From Escherichia phage vB_EcoM_JS09, in sequence record NC_024124.2: 64,000 bases of DNA; one strand, given 5' to 3'. Of the stretch, positions 3,700 through 10,082 are shown one piece after another. Under the pieces are notes generated by a model. It worked only from the letters and a program-made list of their open reading frames with translations. It searched no databases and was not told where the DNA came from. A program made the position numbers and the translations under genes. Each line of letters starts with the position of its first letter. Within the stretch, counting starts at the first letter, position 1.

Positions 3700-4692
3700 A
3701 TGTTACCTGTCATCAGAAAACTTATTTCTCCAAAAGAACTGGCTGAGATTATTCCTTTGTCGGAAGCTTACGCATCACAAGTGGCTTCTCATCGCGAACA
3801 AGTTAATTCGATTATGAACGGTGAAGACCCACGCAAACTTATTGTTGTAGGTCCTTGTTCAATTCATGACCCTATTGCTGCTGTTGAATACGGCAAACGT
3901 CTGGCTGAACTTCAAACTCGTCTTCCTAATGTTCTGTTAGTGATGCGCGTTTATTTTGAAAAGCCTCGAACTACCGTAGGTTGGAAAGGTCTTGTAAATG
4001 ATCCATATCTTGACGGAAGTTTTGATATGAACCACGGTCTTATAGTTGCACGAACATTGTGTCGTAAACTTCTACGTATAGGACTTCCATTAGCAACTGA
4101 AGTATTAGACCCATTCACGATTAAGTATCTTTCTGGTATTTTCTCATGGGTTGCTATTGGCGCCCGTACGACTGAAAGTCAGACACATCGTGAAATTGCT
4201 TCAGGTCTACCGATGTGCGTAGGCTTCAAGAACGCAACCAATGGTTCTATTAAAGTAGCTACAGACGCGATGTATAGTGCCGCCTGGCCTCATCGGTATA
4301 TGGGTATGGACGTCGATGGTACTGTAGGCATTGTTGAAGCTGAAGGTAATCAGAATACGCATATCGTATTGCGTGGCGGGACCAACGGCCCGAACTATCA
4401 TTCTTCTGATATTCAAGAAGCTTCTAACAAAGCAAGGGCAGTAGGTCTGAATCATTATGTAATGGTTGACTGTAGCCATGCAAACGCTGATGGACATTAT
4501 AGCAATCAAATTGGTATTGGTAAAAATTTAGCAGCTAATGATTTGGTCAAAGGAATTATGATAGAATCATTCCTACATGAAGGAAATCAAAAAATTTCCG
4601 ATAATATGTCCTATGGCGTTTCCGTTACCGATGCGTGCATCAGTTGGGAACAAACTAAAGAGCTGTTAACTTATATTAATAAGGTTCAATAA
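3700..4692 (+). CDS. 3-deoxy-D-arabino-heptulosonate-7-phosphate (DAHP) synthase, class I (AroG/AroF/AroH-like)
   Basis: 330 aa; full-length colinearity with E. coli AroG as recalled: VVGPCSIHD, MRVYFEKPRTTVGWKGL, GARTTESQTHRE, GFKN, DCSHAN, ESFLHEGNQ, TDACISWE; stop overlaps cd start. Confidence 0.85.
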   Translation: MLPVIRKLISPKELAEIIPLSEAYASQVASHREQVNSIMNGEDPRKLIVVGPCSIHDPIAAVEYGKRLAELQTRLPNVLLVMRVYFEKPRTTVGWKGLVNDPYLDGSFDMNHGLIVARTLCRKLLRIGLPLATEVLDPFTIKYLSGIFSWVAIGARTTESQTHREIASGLPMCVGFKNATNGSIKVATDAMYSAAWPHRYMGMDVDGTVGIVEAEGNQNTHIVLRGGTNGPNYHSSDIQEASNKARAVGLNHYVMVDCSHANADGHYSNQIGIGKNLAANDLVKGIMIESFLHEGNQKISDNMSYGVSVTDACISWEQTKELLTYINKVQ

Positions 4693-5961: not shown

Positions 5962-6085
5962 TATAAATAACTATATGAAGAGAACACTCTTCTAAGCGGT
6001 AGCCTACAACTGAGAGACTTGTCGAAAGAAGGTGAAATTCAGACGAACGTGGCTACTAAATATTATCTCGAATTGAGAATTTAAA

Positions 6086-6334
6086 ATGATTAAACAATTA
6101 CAACACGCTCTTGAACTGCAACGCAACGCATGGAATAACGGTCACGAAAACTATGGCGCGTCGATTGATGTTGAAGCCGAAGCACTGGAAATCCTGCGTT
6201 ATTTCAAACACCTGAATCCTGCTCAGGCTACTCTGGCTTCTGAACTGGAAGCTAAAGATGAATTGAAATATGCTAAGCCTCTGGCTTCTGCAGCACGCAA
6301 AGCAGTTCGTCATTTTGTTATTACCCTGAAGTAA
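6086..6334 (+). CDS. rIII: rIII lysis-inhibition accessory protein
   Basis: 82 aa, same length and position as T4 rIII between 31 and the 30.x genes. Confidence 0.8.
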   Translation: MIKQLQHALELQRNAWNNGHENYGASIDVEAEALEILRYFKHLNPAQATLASELEAKDELKYAKPLASAARKAVRHFVITLK

Positions 6335-6356
6335 GTTAAATCGAGGAGCCGTCGAA

Positions 6357-6584
6357 TTGTCTGATTATCGATTTGCGAATCGGTATGTTTTAGAAGTACC
6401 GCCCCGACAATTTTACGGTGTACCTCTTGAATGTTACTATCATGCGTCAGAAAAGTGTTATCTGTGTAAGTCTTGGTGGTATGATGACGAGGTTTATGGT
6501 TATCCTGTCGTTAAATATCCAAAACCTATGTTCCCCTTGAGGGCTTGCGCAGGCAATGTCAATAAGTCCTGCATTTTCATTTAA
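6357..6584 (+). CDS. hypothetical Cys-rich small protein, TTG start
   Basis: 75 aa ORF; no in-frame ATG near 5' end; TTG 6357 lies 8 nt after GAGGAG. Confidence 0.4.
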   Translation: MSDYRFANRYVLEVPPRQFYGVPLECYYHASEKCYLCKSWWYDDEVYGYPVVKYPKPMFPLRACAGNVNKSCIFI

Positions 6585-6596
6585 AGAGAATTTATA

Positions 6597-6776
6597 ATGG
6601 CAAAACAAGCTAAAGCAAAGAAAGCAGTTGAAAAGAAAGTTGATGGTACCTCTAAACGCGCTGGATACAAGCGTGGGTCGAACTCTCGTATTAATCAAAC
6701 AGTTGAGAAGATCATGCGCAGAGCACGTGCAGTTCTTCGAGATGATGCTTCTCGTTTTGGAAAGGTTGTTGCATAA
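6597..6776 (+). CDS. hypothetical small basic protein (59 aa)
   Basis: Hand-translated MAKQAKAKKAVEKK...GKVVA; below 60-aa cutoff of ORF track; ends 5 nt before hairpin terminator. Confidence 0.5.
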   Translation: MAKQAKAKKAVEKKVDGTSKRAGYKRGSNSRINQTVEKIMRRARAVLRDDASRFGKVVA

Positions 6777-6781
6777 TTTTA

Positions 6782-6803
6782 GGGAGACTTCGGTCTCCCT
6801 TTT
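6782..6803 (+). terminator. rho-independent terminator, C(UUCG)G hairpin
   Basis: GGGAGAC-TTCG-GTCTCCC followed by TTTT. Confidence 0.75.
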
Positions 6804-6836
6804 GTGCGTTTAGGGCAGAAAAAGTTTAAAAAAGAT

Positions 6837-6865
6837 GTTTACTCTCCTGTAGGATGTGTTACTAT
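6837..6865 (+). promoter_or_regulatory. T4-type early promoter (GTTTAC ... TACTAT)
   Basis: GTTTAC 6837-6842, TACTAT 6860-6865 (17-nt spacer); GGAGAATAAAATG RBS/start at 6907. Confidence 0.6.
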
Positions 6866-6906
6866 AGACTTGTACCACCTAATCAATAAAACAATCGGAG
6901 AATAAA

Positions 6907-7275
6907 ATGAAAATCAATCTGAACTCATACATCAAATGTAAAGACCACGACGGTTATAAAGCTATCGAAATTAAAGAATTCCAGTGGATGTTATACAAAG
7001 AGCAATTTGAGTTCGTAGGTTGTATGACCCCTGAAGGTCCTTCAGATGATTTCTCTTGGAAAATTGTGTTAGCAAACTTTTTCACAGGTGACACATACGA
7101 ATTAAAAACTATTATTACCGGTAAAATTCGTTCAGAAACATATGTTGACGAAGAAACTGGTTACTCTGAAGATGTTACATGGTATCAAAATGGACGCATT
7201 ACAGCAGATAACCTGATCGAAAAAATGAAAGCCAAAGGTGTTTTAAATTTAGACAATTGGATTAAAGTTGCATAA
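6907..7275 (+). CDS. hypothetical protein (30.x region)
   Basis: 122 aa ORF behind early promoter and GGAG RBS. Confidence 0.6.
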   Translation: MKINLNSYIKCKDHDGYKAIEIKEFQWMLYKEQFEFVGCMTPEGPSDDFSWKIVLANFFTGDTYELKTIITGKIRSETYVDEETGYSEDVTWYQNGRITADNLIEKMKAKGVLNLDNWIKVA

Positions 7276-7279
7276 AACA

Positions 7280-7308
7280 GTTTACTTTGGTACAGGTTAT
7301 GTTATTAT
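7280..7308 (+). promoter_or_regulatory. T4-type early promoter nested in inverted repeat TGGTACAGGT/ACCTGTACCA
   Basis: GTTTAC 7280-7285, TATTAT 7303-7308; same GGAGAATAAAATG module as at 6907. Confidence 0.6.
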
Positions 7309-7349
7309 AGACCTGTACCAACAAACAACTTAAACATCTGGAGAATAAA

Positions 7350-7715
7350 ATGAACTACACCAACTTCGAACGCAAATATGTTTCTAACGGTATCGCTGGT
7401 TCTATCGATATGGTTTGTTTGTGGAAGCATAAAAATGGTTCAGTATGTGAAATTGAGCAGTGCATGACTCCTAATTATGTTTATATGCGATTTGAAAATG
7501 GCATCACGGTTTCAATCACGATGGAAGGTTCAAATTTTAAAATTGCATTAGATGATGATTTCCGTCAGCGTGATTTAGGTACTCATCCTTGCTGGAACGG
7601 CGTTAATCGTAAACTTCTGGTTAAAACTTGGATTCGTCATATCCTGAGTAACCGAGCTAAACATGAACATCTCGAAGCAATCTTTGATGTAGTTCTTAAC
7701 GAATTTGATATCTAA
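7350..7715 (+). CDS. hypothetical protein (30.x region)
   Basis: 121 aa ORF; shares CMTP motif and size with neighbouring 122-aa ORF. Confidence 0.6.
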   Translation: MNYTNFERKYVSNGIAGSIDMVCLWKHKNGSVCEIEQCMTPNYVYMRFENGITVSITMEGSNFKIALDDDFRQRDLGTHPCWNGVNRKLLVKTWIRHILSNRAKHEHLEAIFDVVLNEFDI

Positions 7716-7722
7716 TTTAACT

Positions 7723-7738
7723 GGGAGCTTCGGCTCCC
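7723..7738 (+). other. C(UUCG)G stem-loop without U-tract
   Basis: GGGAGC-TTCG-GCTCCC immediately before GAGGAA RBS of next gene. Confidence 0.5.
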
Positions 7739-7750
7739 ATTGAGGAAATT

Positions 7751-8365
7751 ATGTTTAAAGTTAATACTTTTTATAAAATGAATTTTAAAAATGGGGATAT
7801 TACTCCACGCCTTAAAAACATGTTCTCATATGACCTTATCGAGCCTTTTGAAGTTTTAGAAGTTACTGATGCCGGCTCGGTTTGTGAAATTAGAACGTCT
7901 GAAGGTAAAATTTATCAGGCAGGTGTTGGTAAATTCAGTAATTGTTTTACTTTAATATTCTCGACTGATTTAGATGAACATTTTATTGAATGTCATAACC
8001 ATAAGGTCTACGAAGTTCCACATCAAGAAACTAAGAAAAATGGCCCACATGAATATACGAAGGTTGAAACTCCTCACGGTGTGATGTGGCGTCATAACTC
8101 TCCTTTTGGAAGTAAAGGAACATTTGCTCAACTGCCTAAACCGTATGACGATGAAAAATACATCGTCGCCTTTTTATCTGAACAGGGTACTCAAGACCGT
8201 GGATGCCAAAGAAGTGGTTTACTAAGTGAACTTGAAGCTCATAACCAAGCACGTGAATTCGTTGAGAAAAATCCTGGTTCTGAAGCTCTAGTCATGAAAG
8301 CAGTTACTCAATATATCACTGCTCAACCTGTTGTTCATCCGGTAGAAATTAATTTCATTAAGTAG
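7751..8365 (+). CDS. hypothetical protein
   Basis: 204 aa ORF with GAGGAA RBS. Confidence 0.6.
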   Translation: MFKVNTFYKMNFKNGDITPRLKNMFSYDLIEPFEVLEVTDAGSVCEIRTSEGKIYQAGVGKFSNCFTLIFSTDLDEHFIECHNHKVYEVPHQETKKNGPHEYTKVETPHGVMWRHNSPFGSKGTFAQLPKPYDDEKYIVAFLSEQGTQDRGCQRSGLLSELEAHNQAREFVEKNPGSEALVMKAVTQYITAQPVVHPVEINFIK

Positions 8366-8395
8366 TTTACATCCAAGGACGGATTAGAGTATAAT
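8365..8395 (+). promoter_or_regulatory. T4-type early promoter
   Basis: GTTTAC 8365-8370 overlapping upstream stop codon, TATAAT 8390-8395. Confidence 0.5.
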
Positions 8396-8419
8396 GATTT
8401 CTTTAGTAAGTGGAAAAAT

Positions 8420-8617
8420 ATGAAATTTTTAATAGCACAAACAGTCCAATTAAAAGGTGTTGGAATTCCTGGGGTGATTTTTAAAGTTCTCCCTGAATTT
8501 AAAACCGCCGCTGGAATTATCAATGAAGCGTATGCTGTTCAATGGGTTGATTGGACTTCTGACATACGTATGGGTAAAGAGTTATCTCCTATTAAAGGGT
8601 TGAAACATGTTGAATAA
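8420..8617 (+). CDS. hypothetical protein
   Basis: 65 aa ORF downstream of early promoter. Confidence 0.5.
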   Translation: MKFLIAQTVQLKGVGIPGVIFKVLPEFKTAAGIINEAYAVQWVDWTSDIRMGKELSPIKGLKHVE

Positions 8618-8819
8618 ATTAATCCAGAAATTGTTAGGTACAGAAATGGTTGAAGTTACGTATCGTGTGACTGACTGCTCGCCTATTCATCCACAGGATG
8701 AACCATTTATCAAGACAATTAAAATGCTTAAAAACGATGGTGGTTTATCTATTGAAGACCGTCTGCCTAGTTACGGTCATTGGGCTGATGTTGAAATTAT
8801 AAGTGTTAAAGATGTCTGA
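8607..8819 (+). CDS. hypothetical protein
   Basis: 70 aa ORF overlapping neighbours at both ends. Confidence 0.5.
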   Translation: MLNKLIQKLLGTEMVEVTYRVTDCSPIHPQDEPFIKTIKMLKNDGGLSIEDRLPSYGHWADVEIISVKDV

Positions 8820-9270
8820 ATTAGAAATAAGAAGCAATTTCAAATGGCCGTCATGCGCATTAAGTAATTTCGCCCAATGGCCTTTTGTTATGGATGGTAT
8901 TCAATTCGGAGGACTTGAAGGATTTCTCCAAGGATGTAAGGTGAAAAACGTTGAACAACAAAAACGTATATTTGGGTTGTCTGGATTGGCTGCACAGCAA
9001 GCTGGAAGGTCTTATGCAAGAGCTCAGGACCGTGGGACTCTCTTCTGGTTAGGAGTTCCATTTTCAAGATACTCTGAAGCGTGGAAAGAATTATACACAA
9101 ATGCATATTTTGAAGCCGCGATCCAAAACAAGGGGTTTCGTGATGCCTTACAAGCCTCTAAAGGAAAAATTTTGAAGCACAGCATGGCCAGCCACCTAAC
9201 AAAAGATGATACAATATTAACCGAAGCTGAATTTATTGATGTGTTAAACCTATTAAGAGACTCTTTATGA
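8812..9270 (+). CDS. NADAR / YbiA-like (DUF1768) domain protein
   Basis: ORF track 8803..9270 starts on GTG; ATG at 8812 overlaps upstream stop; motif SNFAQWPFVMDGIQF...EGFLQGCK matches recalled YbiA signature. Confidence 0.7.
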   Translation: MSELEIRSNFKWPSCALSNFAQWPFVMDGIQFGGLEGFLQGCKVKNVEQQKRIFGLSGLAAQQAGRSYARAQDRGTLFWLGVPFSRYSEAWKELYTNAYFEAAIQNKGFRDALQASKGKILKHSMASHLTKDDTILTEAEFIDVLNLLRDSL

Positions 9271-10082
9271 AACCTACTATTTTGACTGATATTGATGGTG
9301 TATGTTTAAGCTGGCAATCTGGACTTCCTTATTTTGCCCAAAAATATAATCTTCCATTAGAACATATTTTAAAAATGATTCAGGACGAAAAATTTATTTC
9401 TCCTGGTAAACTATTCAATACCGACGATGACCTCGGTAAACAATTAATAGAAAAATATAATCGCTCTGATTTTATTCGTTACTTAGCGCCTTATTCGGAT
9501 GCTCTTCGAGTTATCAATAAACTAAAAGAAGACTATAATTTTGTAGCCGTGACGGCGCTAGGTGATTCAATTGATGCTCGATTGAATAGACAATTTAATT
9601 TGAATGCTTTGTTCCCAGGCGCTTTCTCTGAAGTAATGATGTGTGGTCATGATTCTTCAAAGGAACAATTATTTGAACTAGCTAAAACAAAATATAACGT
9701 GATTTGTTATGTTGACGATTTAGCTCATCACTGTGACCATGCGGCAGAAATTCTTAATGTACCGATTTATTGGTTGGCCCGTGGTGAACGTGATGATATT
9801 CCTCGCACTGCACAACGTGTACACACGTGGGATGATATTGAATCTCGTTTGGTTCCACCCGAGCATAATTCAGATTCAGATCGTGAAGACCTTTTAAAAC
9901 GATTGGCGGATTTACTTAAAGAATCTGGTGCAACAAGTCCAGGTGCATGGCCTAATCAAATTGGCGCTCCGTCGAATCCGTATACCTGGCGAACCCCAGG
10001 ACCAACCGATATGCGGCCATGGTGGACGATTCAAAACTTTCCTTTAGATTCGTCTAAATGGACTTGGTCTATAAATTGTTAA
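9267..10082 (+). CDS. HAD-like hydrolase-fold protein
   Basis: 271 aa; N-terminal DIDGV motif resembles HAD motif I; position of T4 30.2. Confidence 0.55.
   Translation: MKPTILTDIDGVCLSWQSGLPYFAQKYNLPLEHILKMIQDEKFISPGKLFNTDDDLGKQLIEKYNRSDFIRYLAPYSDALRVINKLKEDYNFVAVTALGDSIDARLNRQFNLNALFPGAFSEVMMCGHDSSKEQLFELAKTKYNVICYVDDLAHHCDHAAEILNVPIYWLARGERDDIPRTAQRVHTWDDIESRLVPPEHNSDSDREDLLKRLADLLKESGATSPGAWPNQIGAPSNPYTWRTPGPTDMRPWWTIQNFPLDSSKWTWSINC

What the first reader, a model, noticed from the sequence alone, without database searches (positions are those of the whole stretch)
6837..7715. Tandem pair of promoter-headed paralogous ORFs (122 and 121 aa) sharing a CMTP motif
The segments 6837-6906 and 7280-7349 are near-identical in layout (GTTTAC promoter, then GGAGAATAAAATG). 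Each precedes an ORF of almost identical length, with a shared CMTP motif (VGCMTPEGP and EQCMTPNYV) in comparable position. This looks like a duplicated and diverged cassette rather than two unrelated genes.
Basis: seen in the sequence. Interest (0 to 1): 0.55.

Follow-up and report, generated by a model that had tools for sequence, protein, structure and literature searches.

The report
Unrelated early genes, repeated promoter heads
These are the known T4-type early genes 30.8 and 30.7: two unrelated small proteins, each behind its own copy of the phage's standard early promoter-leader cassette, which in related phages also serves as a recombination handle for deleting or swapping such genes, so the arrangement is ordinary for this phage group.

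Summary
GTTTAC starts both segments, GGAGAATAAAATG ends both, the segments match at 52 of 70 bases, the ORFs are 122 and 121 aa, and CMTP sits at residues 39 and 38.

The paralogy reading fails. The window is a T4-like Mosigvirus (98.7% identical to phage HX01). The ORFs are orthologues of T4 genes 30.8 (Pfam PF06019) and 30.7 (PF06919). BLASTP, hhalign (probability 0.3%) and reciprocal Foldseek searches with confident AlphaFold models find no relationship. CMTP is not conserved in either family (T4 has VETT and YMTP) and fits chance.

The shared upstream layout is mostly the genus-wide early-promoter/leader consensus. Among 15 HX01 early promoters this pair ranks 9th of 105 in similarity. The heads do behave as the known PeSL-type recombination cassettes. 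In Dhakavirus IME341 the two leaders are identical over 49 nt. In Jiaodavirus, KPV15 lacks 30.8 through a crossover inside GGAGAATAAAA between exactly these two heads.

Seen in passing: the 30.7 promoter lies inside a hairpin (7287-7321) whose loop holds the -10 hexamer. The structure is conserved across genera with compensatory changes. This may be a new variant of T4's promoter-in-hairpin control.

The parts
6597..6776 (+). Gene 30.9 orthologue (59 aa, basic). It is the upstream neighbour and ends the preceding transcription unit.
   Evidence: ORF list. phrog_1427, E 2e-31. Annotated as 30.9 in ATK47 and HX01. pI 11.35.
6781..6806 (+). Intrinsic-terminator-like hairpin AGGGAGAC-UUCG-GUCUCCCU followed by UUUGUG. 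This is the 'stem-loop' part of a full PeSL-type cassette.
   Evidence: RNA fold -14.1 kcal/mol, z -2.9. Putative terminators are annotated at the same place in ATK47. T4 has an equivalent hairpin there.
6819..6836 (+). A-rich UP-element-like tract upstream of the 30.8 promoter.
   Evidence: Read from the sequence. A-rich -40 to -44 is part of the T4-like early promoter consensus (PMC1524935) and of the HX01 consensus.
6837..6865 (+). Early promoter of gene 30.8: GTTTAC (-35, 6837-6842), a 17-nt spacer, then TGT-TACTAT (extended -10, 6857-6865).
   Evidence: Matches the GTTTAC / TAYWAT early consensus (PMC1524935; PMC4122927). No transcription start has been mapped in this phage.
6897..6900 (+). 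Shine-Dalgarno GGAG, 6 nt before the ATG. GGAG followed by an A-rich 3' context is the RegB-type cleavage context.
   Evidence: RegB target description in PMC3014915. Cleavage here is inferred.
6907..7275 (+). Gene 30.8 orthologue: 122 aa, acidic (pI 4.9), soluble, mostly beta-strand with one C-terminal helix.
   Evidence: Pfam PF06019, 149 bits against a cut-off of 25. phrog_1507. 37% identity to T4 gp30.8. AlphaFold pLDDT 94. pI.
7280..7308 (+). Early promoter of gene 30.7: GTTTAC (7280-7285), a 17-nt spacer, then TGT-TATTAT (extended -10, 7300-7308). It begins 4 nt after the 30.8 stop codon, with no terminator in between.
   Evidence: Found by the promoter scan as TTTACT-16-TATTAT with TG. 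DNA homology with T4 starts exactly at 7280.
7287..7321 (+). Inverted repeat / hairpin TTGGTACAGGTT [loop ATGTTATTATA, which holds the -10] GACCTGTACCAA. The 5' arm lies in the promoter spacer and the 3' arm just after the -10.
   Evidence: RNA fold of 7276-7352 gives -19.5 kcal/mol, z -3.4. A stem of 9-15 bp is present in 24 of 26 distinct orthologous promoters, with at least 6 unrelated arm sequences. RNAalifold finds 5 of 10 pairs compensatory. 81.8% of cells are paired against 32-44% when the partners are slid, and 0 of 500 shuffles reach the observed value.
7340..7343 (+). Shine-Dalgarno GGAG of gene 30.7, 6 nt before the ATG, in the same 15-mer GGAGAATAAAATGAA as for 30.8.
7350..7715 (+). 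Gene 30.7 orthologue: 121 aa, seven beta-strands followed by two C-terminal helices.
   Evidence: Pfam PF06919, 174 bits against a cut-off of 27. phrog_1582. 90-95% identical to T4-type gp30.7 in 539 records. AlphaFold pLDDT 86.
7722..7739 (+). Stable UUCG-tetraloop hairpin UGGGAGC-UUCG-GCUCCCA just after the 30.7 stop codon. It has no U-run and is followed at once by the SD (GAGG 7742-7745) and ATG of the next ORF.
   Evidence: RNA fold -14.1 kcal/mol, z -3.4. Annotated as a terminator in ATK47. T4 has an equivalent hairpin.
7751..8365 (+). ORF of 204 aa (phrog_17531) that occupies the place of T4 gene 30.6. A replaced module bounded by regulatory elements.
   Evidence: No DNA homology to T4 over 7758-8419, while both flanks align.

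Best explanation
The window comes from a T4-like Mosigvirus. The two ORFs are orthologues of T4 genes 30.8 and 30.7. These are two unrelated, small, soluble proteins made immediately after infection; their biochemical function is unknown.

Each ORF is headed by its own copy of the phage's standard early promoter-leader cassette:
- an A-rich UP-like tract,
- GTTTAC at -35,
- a TGn-extended -10,
- a leader of about 30 nt,
- GGAG six bases before the ATG.

Host sigma-70 RNA polymerase should transcribe both right after infection. The GGAG plus A-rich ribosome site is the type that the phage RegB nuclease cuts to end early expression. These two steps are inferred from T4 knowledge. A terminator hairpin after 30.9 and a UUCG hairpin after 30.7 bracket the pair.

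The similarity of the two heads is mainly the genus-wide early-promoter consensus. It is topped up by occasional recombination or gene conversion between the two adjacent copies. Because the heads are direct repeats flanking 30.8, they act as PeSL-type portable homology. Recombination between them deletes, inserts or replaces the gene module without disturbing expression of the neighbours.

Shown here: gene identity, lack of paralogy, the promoter consensus, and recombination products in related genera. Inferred: actual transcription start sites, RegB cleavage, recombination in this particular genome, and any role of the proteins (most likely dispensable host-takeover or host-range accessories).
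For: Identity:
- 98.7% DNA identity to phage HX01, with synteny cd-31.1-31-rIII-30.9-30.8-30.7-...-30.1-ligase.
- Pfam PF06019 (E 7e-44) and PF06919 (E 8e-52).

Not paralogues.

Early expression of the T4 orthologues at both RNA and protein level: supplement of PMC9697503.

Promoter class:
- GTTTAC -35 and A-rich UP-like region per PMC1524935.
- TTTACW-N17-TAYWAT plus SD plus ATG, with an upstream stem-loop, per PMC4122927.
- 15 stringent and 34 relaxed copies genome-wide in HX01 share an extended consensus that includes TATAGACC.

Module boundaries against T4 fall on the regulatory elements. Homology blocks are 6119-6764, 7280-7757 and 8420-9836. The 30.8 cassette and ORF204 are replaced, and the window's 30.8 promoter aligns better with T4's 30.7 promoter than with T4's 30.8 promoter.

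Recombination between exactly these two heads in relatives:
- In Dhakavirus IME341 the stretch from the -10 through ATGAA (49 nt) is identical upstream of both genes.
- Jiaodavirus L039/KLB2 has 30.9-P-30.8-ORF170-P-30.7. KPV15 (L040) has 30.9-P-30.7, with the 30.8-type promoter and leader fused to the 30.7 start. The crossover lies inside GGAGAATAAAA.
- 33 phage records hold that 30.8-less query stretch in one place covering at least 80% of it; the 32 rows listed at full coverage are single pieces.
- PeSL crossovers between the -10 and the SD/ATG were shown experimentally in RB49/phi1 (PMC2839356).
Against: - No transcription start, RegB cut or recombination product has been observed for this phage. 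The recombination evidence comes from other genera.
- In this genome the pair is only the 9th most similar of 105 early-promoter pairs. Selection on a strong promoter and ribosome site could therefore maintain the resemblance without recent exchange.
- The second head lacks the upstream stem-loop that defines a full PeSL.
- The two models could not be superposed directly. The fold comparison rests on reciprocal database searches.
- Both proteins are beta-rich with C-terminal helices, so a very remote common origin cannot be formally excluded.
Confidence: 0.85

Rival explanations
1. One reading: an ancient tandem duplication of one promoter+ORF cassette. The two proteins would have diverged beyond sequence recognition but keep a common fold and the CMTP site.
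For: - Adjacent genes on the same strand, 122 and 121 aa, with heads of identical length.
- CMTP at residues 39 and 38.
- Both models are beta-rich with C-terminal helix or helices.
Against: - hhalign probability 0.3%. BLASTP aligns only 8 residues, E 0.19.
- Reciprocal Foldseek searches against BFVD return only each protein's own family in the top 50.
- CMTP varies within the 30.7 family (YMTP, WVSP, WEDN) and is VETT in T4 gp30.8.
- The coincidence is expected about once per window (with my estimate of the number of ORF pairs).
- T4's own two heads are much less alike: 46 of 69 positions, with a different leader.
- 30.8 occurs without an adjacent 30.7, and also in a non-Straboviridae phage.
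Confidence: 0.03
2. Pure convergence. The two heads resemble each other only because every strong early promoter plus strong ribosome site in this phage is selected towards the same consensus. No exchange between the two copies ever contributed in this lineage.
For: - The consensus accounts for most identical positions.
- Eight promoter pairs from distant parts of the HX01 genome are more alike than this pair.
- GGAG plus an A-rich tract is the commonest T4 ribosome site (PMC3014915).
Against: - Pair-specific features go beyond the consensus: TGTACCA after the -10, the identical 70-nt GTTTAC-to-ATG distance, and the identical 15-mer.
- The window's 30.8 promoter is closer to T4's 30.7 promoter than to T4's 30.8 promoter.
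- A 49-nt identity tract in IME341 and the KPV15 crossover show that the two copies do exchange.
Confidence: 0.12

Closest known systems
T4 gp30.8 (Pfam PF06019, Phage_30_8; phrog_1507)
   Same: Full-length match at 149 bits. Same position between 30.9 and 30.7. Same early promoter plus GGAGAATAAAATG start.
   Different: Only 37% identical to the T4 protein, with a 10-residue insertion. This is the Mosigvirus/Dhakavirus allele carrying the conserved C-x-TPEG-x-SDDF stretch. Its promoter leader is of the 30.7 type rather than the T4 30.8 type.
T4 gp30.7 (Pfam PF06919, Phage_T4_Gp30_7; phrog_1582)
   Same: 174 bits, 121 aa as in T4, and 90-95% identical to Tequatrovirus copies. The promoter, hairpin and downstream stem-loop are also conserved.
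   Different: Cys instead of Tyr at residue 38. That substitution creates the chance CMTP match.
PeSL cassettes (promoter-early stem-loops; Arbiol 2010 PMC2839356; Comeau 2014 PMC4122927)
   Same: AT-rich tract, TTTACW-N17-TAYWAT promoter, SD and ATG. Repeated through the variable early regions. They sit at indel and replacement boundaries, and crossovers fall between the -10 and the ATG.
   Different: Only the first head has the upstream stem-loop. The second has a hairpin spanning the promoter itself. Mini-circles were not tested here.
T4-type early promoters (GTTTAC -35, UP-like A tract, TGn-extended -10)
   Same: All sequence features are present at both heads.
   Different: Mosigvirus copies carry an extended conserved block, TGTTAYTATAGACCTAT, running past the -10.
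Promoter-inside-hairpin translational control of T4 genes e, soc, 49 and I-TevI (PMC3014915)
   Same: The 5' arm of the hairpin lies upstream of the internal promoter's start. Only read-through RNA can therefore fold it.
   Different: The internal promoter is early, not late. In this window the ribosome site lies 19 nt beyond the hairpin and is not sequestered; it is sequestered in the Karamvirus-like orthologues.

Membership tests
Pfam PF06019 Phage_30_8 | Whole-protein HMM score above the gathering cut-off (25 bits), full-length match | tested here: met
   149.2 bits; residues 2-121 match profile positions 3-123 of 124.
Pfam PF06919 Phage_T4_Gp30_7 | Whole-protein HMM score above the gathering cut-off (27 bits), full-length match | tested here: met
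   174.4 bits; residues 1-120 match profile positions 1-118 of 118.
   BLASTP E 0.19 over 8 residues. hhalign probability 0.3%, E 0.18. Neither homologue search returns the other family.
   Reciprocal Foldseek searches against BFVD hit only each protein's own family, although both families are in the library. A direct superposition was not possible with these tools.
   C39, T41 and P42 are invariant only in the Mosigvirus-type 30.8 alignment. The position is VETT in T4 gp30.8 and CMTP, YMTP, WVSP or WEDN in the 30.7 family.
T4-type early promoter | GTTTAC at -35, about 17-nt spacer, TAnnnT -10 with a GT-rich/TGn extension, A-rich tract upstream, placed 5' of an early gene | tested here: met
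   Both heads. Consensus taken from PMC1524935 and from 15 HX01 copies.
T4-type early promoter | Transcripts start there in the first minutes of infection | not testable with these tools
   Only indirect: T4 30.8 and 30.7 are classed as early RNA and early protein (PMC9697503 supplement).
PeSL cassette | Early promoter plus AT-rich tract plus SD/ATG, repeated many times in the variable regions | tested here: met
PeSL cassette | GC-rich stem-loop (terminator) just upstream of the promoter | tested here: inconclusive
   Met for the 30.8 head (6781-6800). Not met for the 30.7 head, which starts 4 nt after the 30.8 stop codon and instead has a hairpin spanning the -10.
PeSL cassette | Sits at insertion, deletion or replacement boundaries between related phages, with crossovers inside the cassette | tested here: met
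   Boundaries against T4 at 7280, 7757 and 8420. KPV15 against L039/KLB2: the crossover lies in the SD-ATG stretch of the two heads.
PeSL cassette | Forms excised mini-circles during infection | not testable with these tools
   Needs inverse PCR on infected cells (PMC2839356).
Promoter-in-hairpin translational control (T4 e/soc/49/I-TevI type) | The hairpin's 5' arm lies upstream of the internal promoter's start site | tested here: met
   Arms at 7287-7298 and 7310-7321 enclose the -10 at 7303-7308.
Promoter-in-hairpin translational control (T4 e/soc/49/I-TevI type) | The hairpin sequesters the SD or AUG | tested here: not met
   In the window the SD (7340) lies 19 nt past the hairpin. The SD is inside the 3' arm only in the L027/28/32/41/44/45 type.

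The most novel reading that the evidence does not exclude
The hairpin that encloses the -10 of the 30.7 early promoter (7287-7321), together with similar promoter-spanning hairpins at a third to a half of the early promoters in T4-like phages, may be a selected RNA element. It would form only in read-through transcripts from upstream promoters. It would mark, silence or process those transcripts, while transcripts started at the embedded promoter lack the 5' arm. On this reading it is an alternative to the upstream terminator for insulating portable early-gene cassettes. That would extend T4's classical late-promoter-in-hairpin control (e, soc, 49, I-TevI) to early promoters.
Probability: 0.4. 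Interest if true: 0.55.

Novelty: new member of a known kind. Interest (0 to 1): 0.3.

Why it matters
It describes two catalogued T4 early genes of unknown function behind standard early promoters, not a duplication.

Two things add some value:
- A clean natural example at this locus of regulatory cassettes acting as recombination handles. The KPV15 deletion junction and the IME341 leader homogenisation support the PeSL model of how T4-like phages shuffle accessory genes.
- The conserved, covarying hairpin around the -10 of the 30.7 promoter. If functional, it would show how tandem early cassettes are insulated from each other's transcripts.

Tried and rejected
Searches that gave nothing useful:
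- PDB sequence searches with both family profiles gave only noise.
- A search for gp30.7, gp30.8 and the Pfam names returned one paper, unrelated by its title and not opened. Searching the bare gene numbers mostly returned unrelated numbers. The T4 genome review (PMC150520) is not held. The T4 records carry no promoter features.

Checks that were incomplete or weaker than hoped:
- The generic promoter scanner listed only the second promoter. It also found no more promoter-like sites than in shuffles, so it could not be used as evidence.
- One column-wise structure could not describe the hairpin in all genera, because the arms shift by 1-6 nt in the MAFFT alignment. Per-sequence folding was used instead.
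- In 15 stringent HX01 promoters, those preceded by a terminator lacked the promoter-spanning hairpin and those not preceded by one had it, with complete separation. This weakened with an automated rule on larger sets: 34 promoters gave p 0.02 and 21 promoters gave p 0.06. Many promoters without a terminator also lack a hairpin.
- Control upstream regions without an early promoter are also often structured: 24% have z below -2. The genome-wide enrichment is clear only at z below -3, at 29-43% against 6%.
- The ORF between 30.8 and 30.7 in Jiaodavirus shows only marginal similarity to ORF204 (E 0.003 pairwise).

Full report
**What is there.**
- GTTTAC lies at 6837 and 7280, and GGAGAATAAAATG at 6897 and 7340. 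Both heads measure 70 nt from GTTTAC to the ATG and match at 52 of 70 positions without gaps.
- The ORFs are 122 aa (6907-7275) and 121 aa (7350-7715). CMTP sits at residue 39 and residue 38.

**Whose genome.** Bases 6000-8400 are 98.7% identical to Escherichia phage HX01. At least 80% of the query is matched in 110 phage records, all T4-like. These closest relatives (HX01, ATK47) are Mosigvirus. The gene order around the finding is that of T4: cd, 31.1, 31, rIII, 30.9, then the two ORFs, then 30.5-like to 30.1 and DNA ligase.

**Identity of the two ORFs.** ORF122 is a full-length member of Pfam Phage_30_8 (PF06019, 149 bits) and phrog_1507. ORF121 is a full-length member of Phage_T4_Gp30_7 (PF06919, 174 bits) and phrog_1582. 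T4 has the same pair in the same order, with lengths of 110 and 121 aa. In T4 both are classed as early at RNA and at protein level (PMC9697503 supplement). A search for the protein and Pfam names returned one paper, unrelated by its title.

**Are they paralogues? No.**
- BLASTP aligns only EFVGCMTP with EIEQCMTP (E 0.19).
- Database searches returned 38 and 22 clusters respectively. Each carries only its own Pfam domain.
- hhalign of a 25-sequence 30.8 alignment against a 12-sequence 30.7 alignment gives probability 0.3%.
- The AlphaFold models are confident: pLDDT 94 for gp30.8 and 86 for gp30.7. Foldseek against BFVD finds three members of each protein's own family. It finds none of the other family within the top 50, in either direction.
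- CMTP is not a family feature. In the 30.7 family that position reads CMTP, YMTP (as in T4), WVSP or WEDN. T4 gp30.8 has VETT there.
- Shuffled versions of the proteins share a 4-mer within 3 residues of the same position in 0.8% of trials. That is about one case per window of this size, on my estimate of 80-100 adjacent ORF pairs.
- The two genes have different histories. gp30.7 is 90-95% identical to Tequatrovirus copies in 539 records. gp30.8 is about 37% identical to the T4-type protein.
- A 30.8 homologue also occurs in a Justusliebigvirus, outside Straboviridae.
- Caveat: I could not superpose the two models directly.

**Why the heads look alike.** Both are T4-type early promoters. Each has GTTTAC at -35, an A-rich tract upstream and a TGn-extended -10 after 17 nt (PMC1524935). 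Each is followed by a GGAG ribosome site.

I assembled the HX01 genome and extracted 15 stringent early promoters. Pairwise identity over 54 nt averages 56% (sd 14%). This pair scores 70% and ranks 9th of 105.

Three features are specific to the pair: TGTACCA after the -10, the equal 70-nt length, and the 15-mer GGAGAATAAAATGAA.

**The heads as recombination handles.** These cassettes fit the published PeSL description. That is an AT-rich tract, TTTACW-N17-TAYWAT, SD and ATG, with a stem-loop upstream; the cassettes are repeated in variable regions, and crossovers have been mapped between the -10 and the ATG (PMC4122927; PMC2839356).
- Boundaries against T4: DNA homology runs 6119-6764, 7280-7757 and 8420-9836. 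The 30.8 cassette and ORF204 are therefore replaced modules whose edges fall on GTTTAC, on the SD/ATG and on an ATG. The window's 30.8 promoter aligns better with T4's 30.7 promoter than with T4's 30.8 promoter.
- Homogenised leaders: in Dhakavirus IME341 the 49 nt from the -10 through ATGAA are identical upstream of both genes.
- A deletion junction: in Jiaodavirus, L039 and KLB2 carry 30.9-P-30.8-ORF170-P-30.7. KPV15 carries 30.9-P-30.7, with the 30.8-type promoter and leader joined to the 30.7 start. The crossover lies inside GGAGAATAAAA. In 33 records one place covers at least 80% of that 30.8-less query stretch; the 32 rows listed at full coverage are single pieces.
- Wider sample: of 33 IMG/VR loci with 30.7, 14 have 30.8 directly upstream, 16 have it separated by inserted ORFs, and 3 lack it.

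**Bracketing elements.** After 30.9 there is an 8-bp UUCG hairpin followed by a U-run (6781-6806, z -2.9). After 30.7 there is a 7-bp UUCG hairpin without a U-run (7722-7739, z -3.4), followed at once by the next ribosome site. No terminator separates 30.8 from the 30.7 promoter, which starts 4 nt after the stop codon.

**A difference between the two heads.** This is the most interesting thing I saw. The 30.7 promoter sits inside a hairpin: TTGGTACAGGTT, a loop holding the -10, then GACCTGTACCAA (7287-7321). The RNA fold is -19.5 kcal/mol with z -3.4. The 30.8 head shows nothing comparable (z 0).
- Across 26 distinct orthologous 30.7 promoters, 24 have a 9-15 bp stem in the same place, built from at least six unrelated arm sequences, with z between -3.3 and -6.6 for all but one of them.
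- The two exceptions are L031 and the chimeric KPV15 promoter.
- In one group the 3' arm includes the Shine-Dalgarno GGAG. In the window the ribosome site is left free.
- RNAalifold finds compensatory changes at 5 of 10 pairs.
- On the same alignment, 81.8% of cells pair against 32-44% when the partners are slid, and 0 of 500 shuffles reach the observed covariation.
- The 30.8 promoters have no conserved hairpin.

Because the 5' arm lies upstream of the expected start site, only read-through RNA could fold it. That is the logic of T4 genes e, soc, 49 and I-TevI (PMC3014915), but here with an early promoter.

Genome-wide, spacer-to-leader complementarity is cognate-specific (mean longest match 6.8 against 5.0 nt; 0 of 5000 permutations, so p below 2e-4). 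In both genomes tested, promoters preceded by a terminator hairpin never carry such a structure. The association is only moderate in the larger sets, and control upstream regions are also often structured.

**Verdict.** The duplication reading is refuted for the genes and holds only for the regulatory heads. The locus is a standard pair of T4 early genes with PeSL-type heads.

Noticed in passing
window 7287-7321 (also L014-L046 upstream of the 30.7 match): The -10 of the gene 30.7 early promoter lies in the loop of an 11-12 bp hairpin. The structure is conserved in 24 of 26 distinct orthologous promoters, with at least six unrelated arm sequences. In one group the 3' arm contains the Shine-Dalgarno site. 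The neighbouring 30.8 promoter has no such structure.
   Followed up: partly
HX01 genome (L010-L013) and OU509536.1 (L049-L052): A third to a half of early promoters have a significantly stable fold from GTTTAC to the ATG: 29-43% have z below -3, against 6% of control upstream regions. An example is TTCTCCTCTAGTTG / CAACTAGAGGAGAA, which pairs the spacer with the ribosome site. Promoters preceded by a GC-rich terminator hairpin never show it (4 and 2 by the automated rule; 6 by eye in HX01).
   Followed up: partly
window 7751-8365: A 204-aa ORF (phrog_17531) replaces T4 gene 30.6. It has no promoter of its own. It starts 12 nt after a UUCG hairpin, and its stop codon overlaps the next early promoter's GTTTAC at 8365. 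It shows marginal similarity (E 0.003) to the ORF inserted between 30.8 and 30.7 in Jiaodavirus.
   Followed up: partly
L008 (Escherichia phage ESCO32, Justusliebigvirus) 1289-1672: A 30.8 homologue (about 40% identity) occurs in a phage outside Straboviridae, behind a different upstream region that lacks GTTTAC. This suggests transfer of the gene between phage families.
   Followed up: no
L004 (IME341) upstream of 1301; L017, L020, L022: In Dhakavirus the 30.8 head has GTGTAC instead of GTTTAC at -35, while its leader is identical or nearly identical to the 30.7 leader. This looks like a partly degraded promoter next to a homogenised leader.
   Followed up: no
window 6335-6596: About 260 nt between rIII and 30.9 are conserved with T4 (about 80% identity) but mostly unannotated. 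The stretch contains a 75-aa TTG-start ORF (6357-6584). In ATK47 an 'ori type 2 repeat' is annotated just upstream of 30.9.
   Followed up: no
window about 3700-4692, upstream of cd (from the ATK47/HX01 annotation, L001/L002 201-1193): A host-like DAHP synthase (AroG-type phospho-2-dehydro-3-deoxyheptonate aldolase) gene sits just upstream of dCMP deaminase in these relatives' records. I did not check the window sequence itself for it.
   Followed up: no
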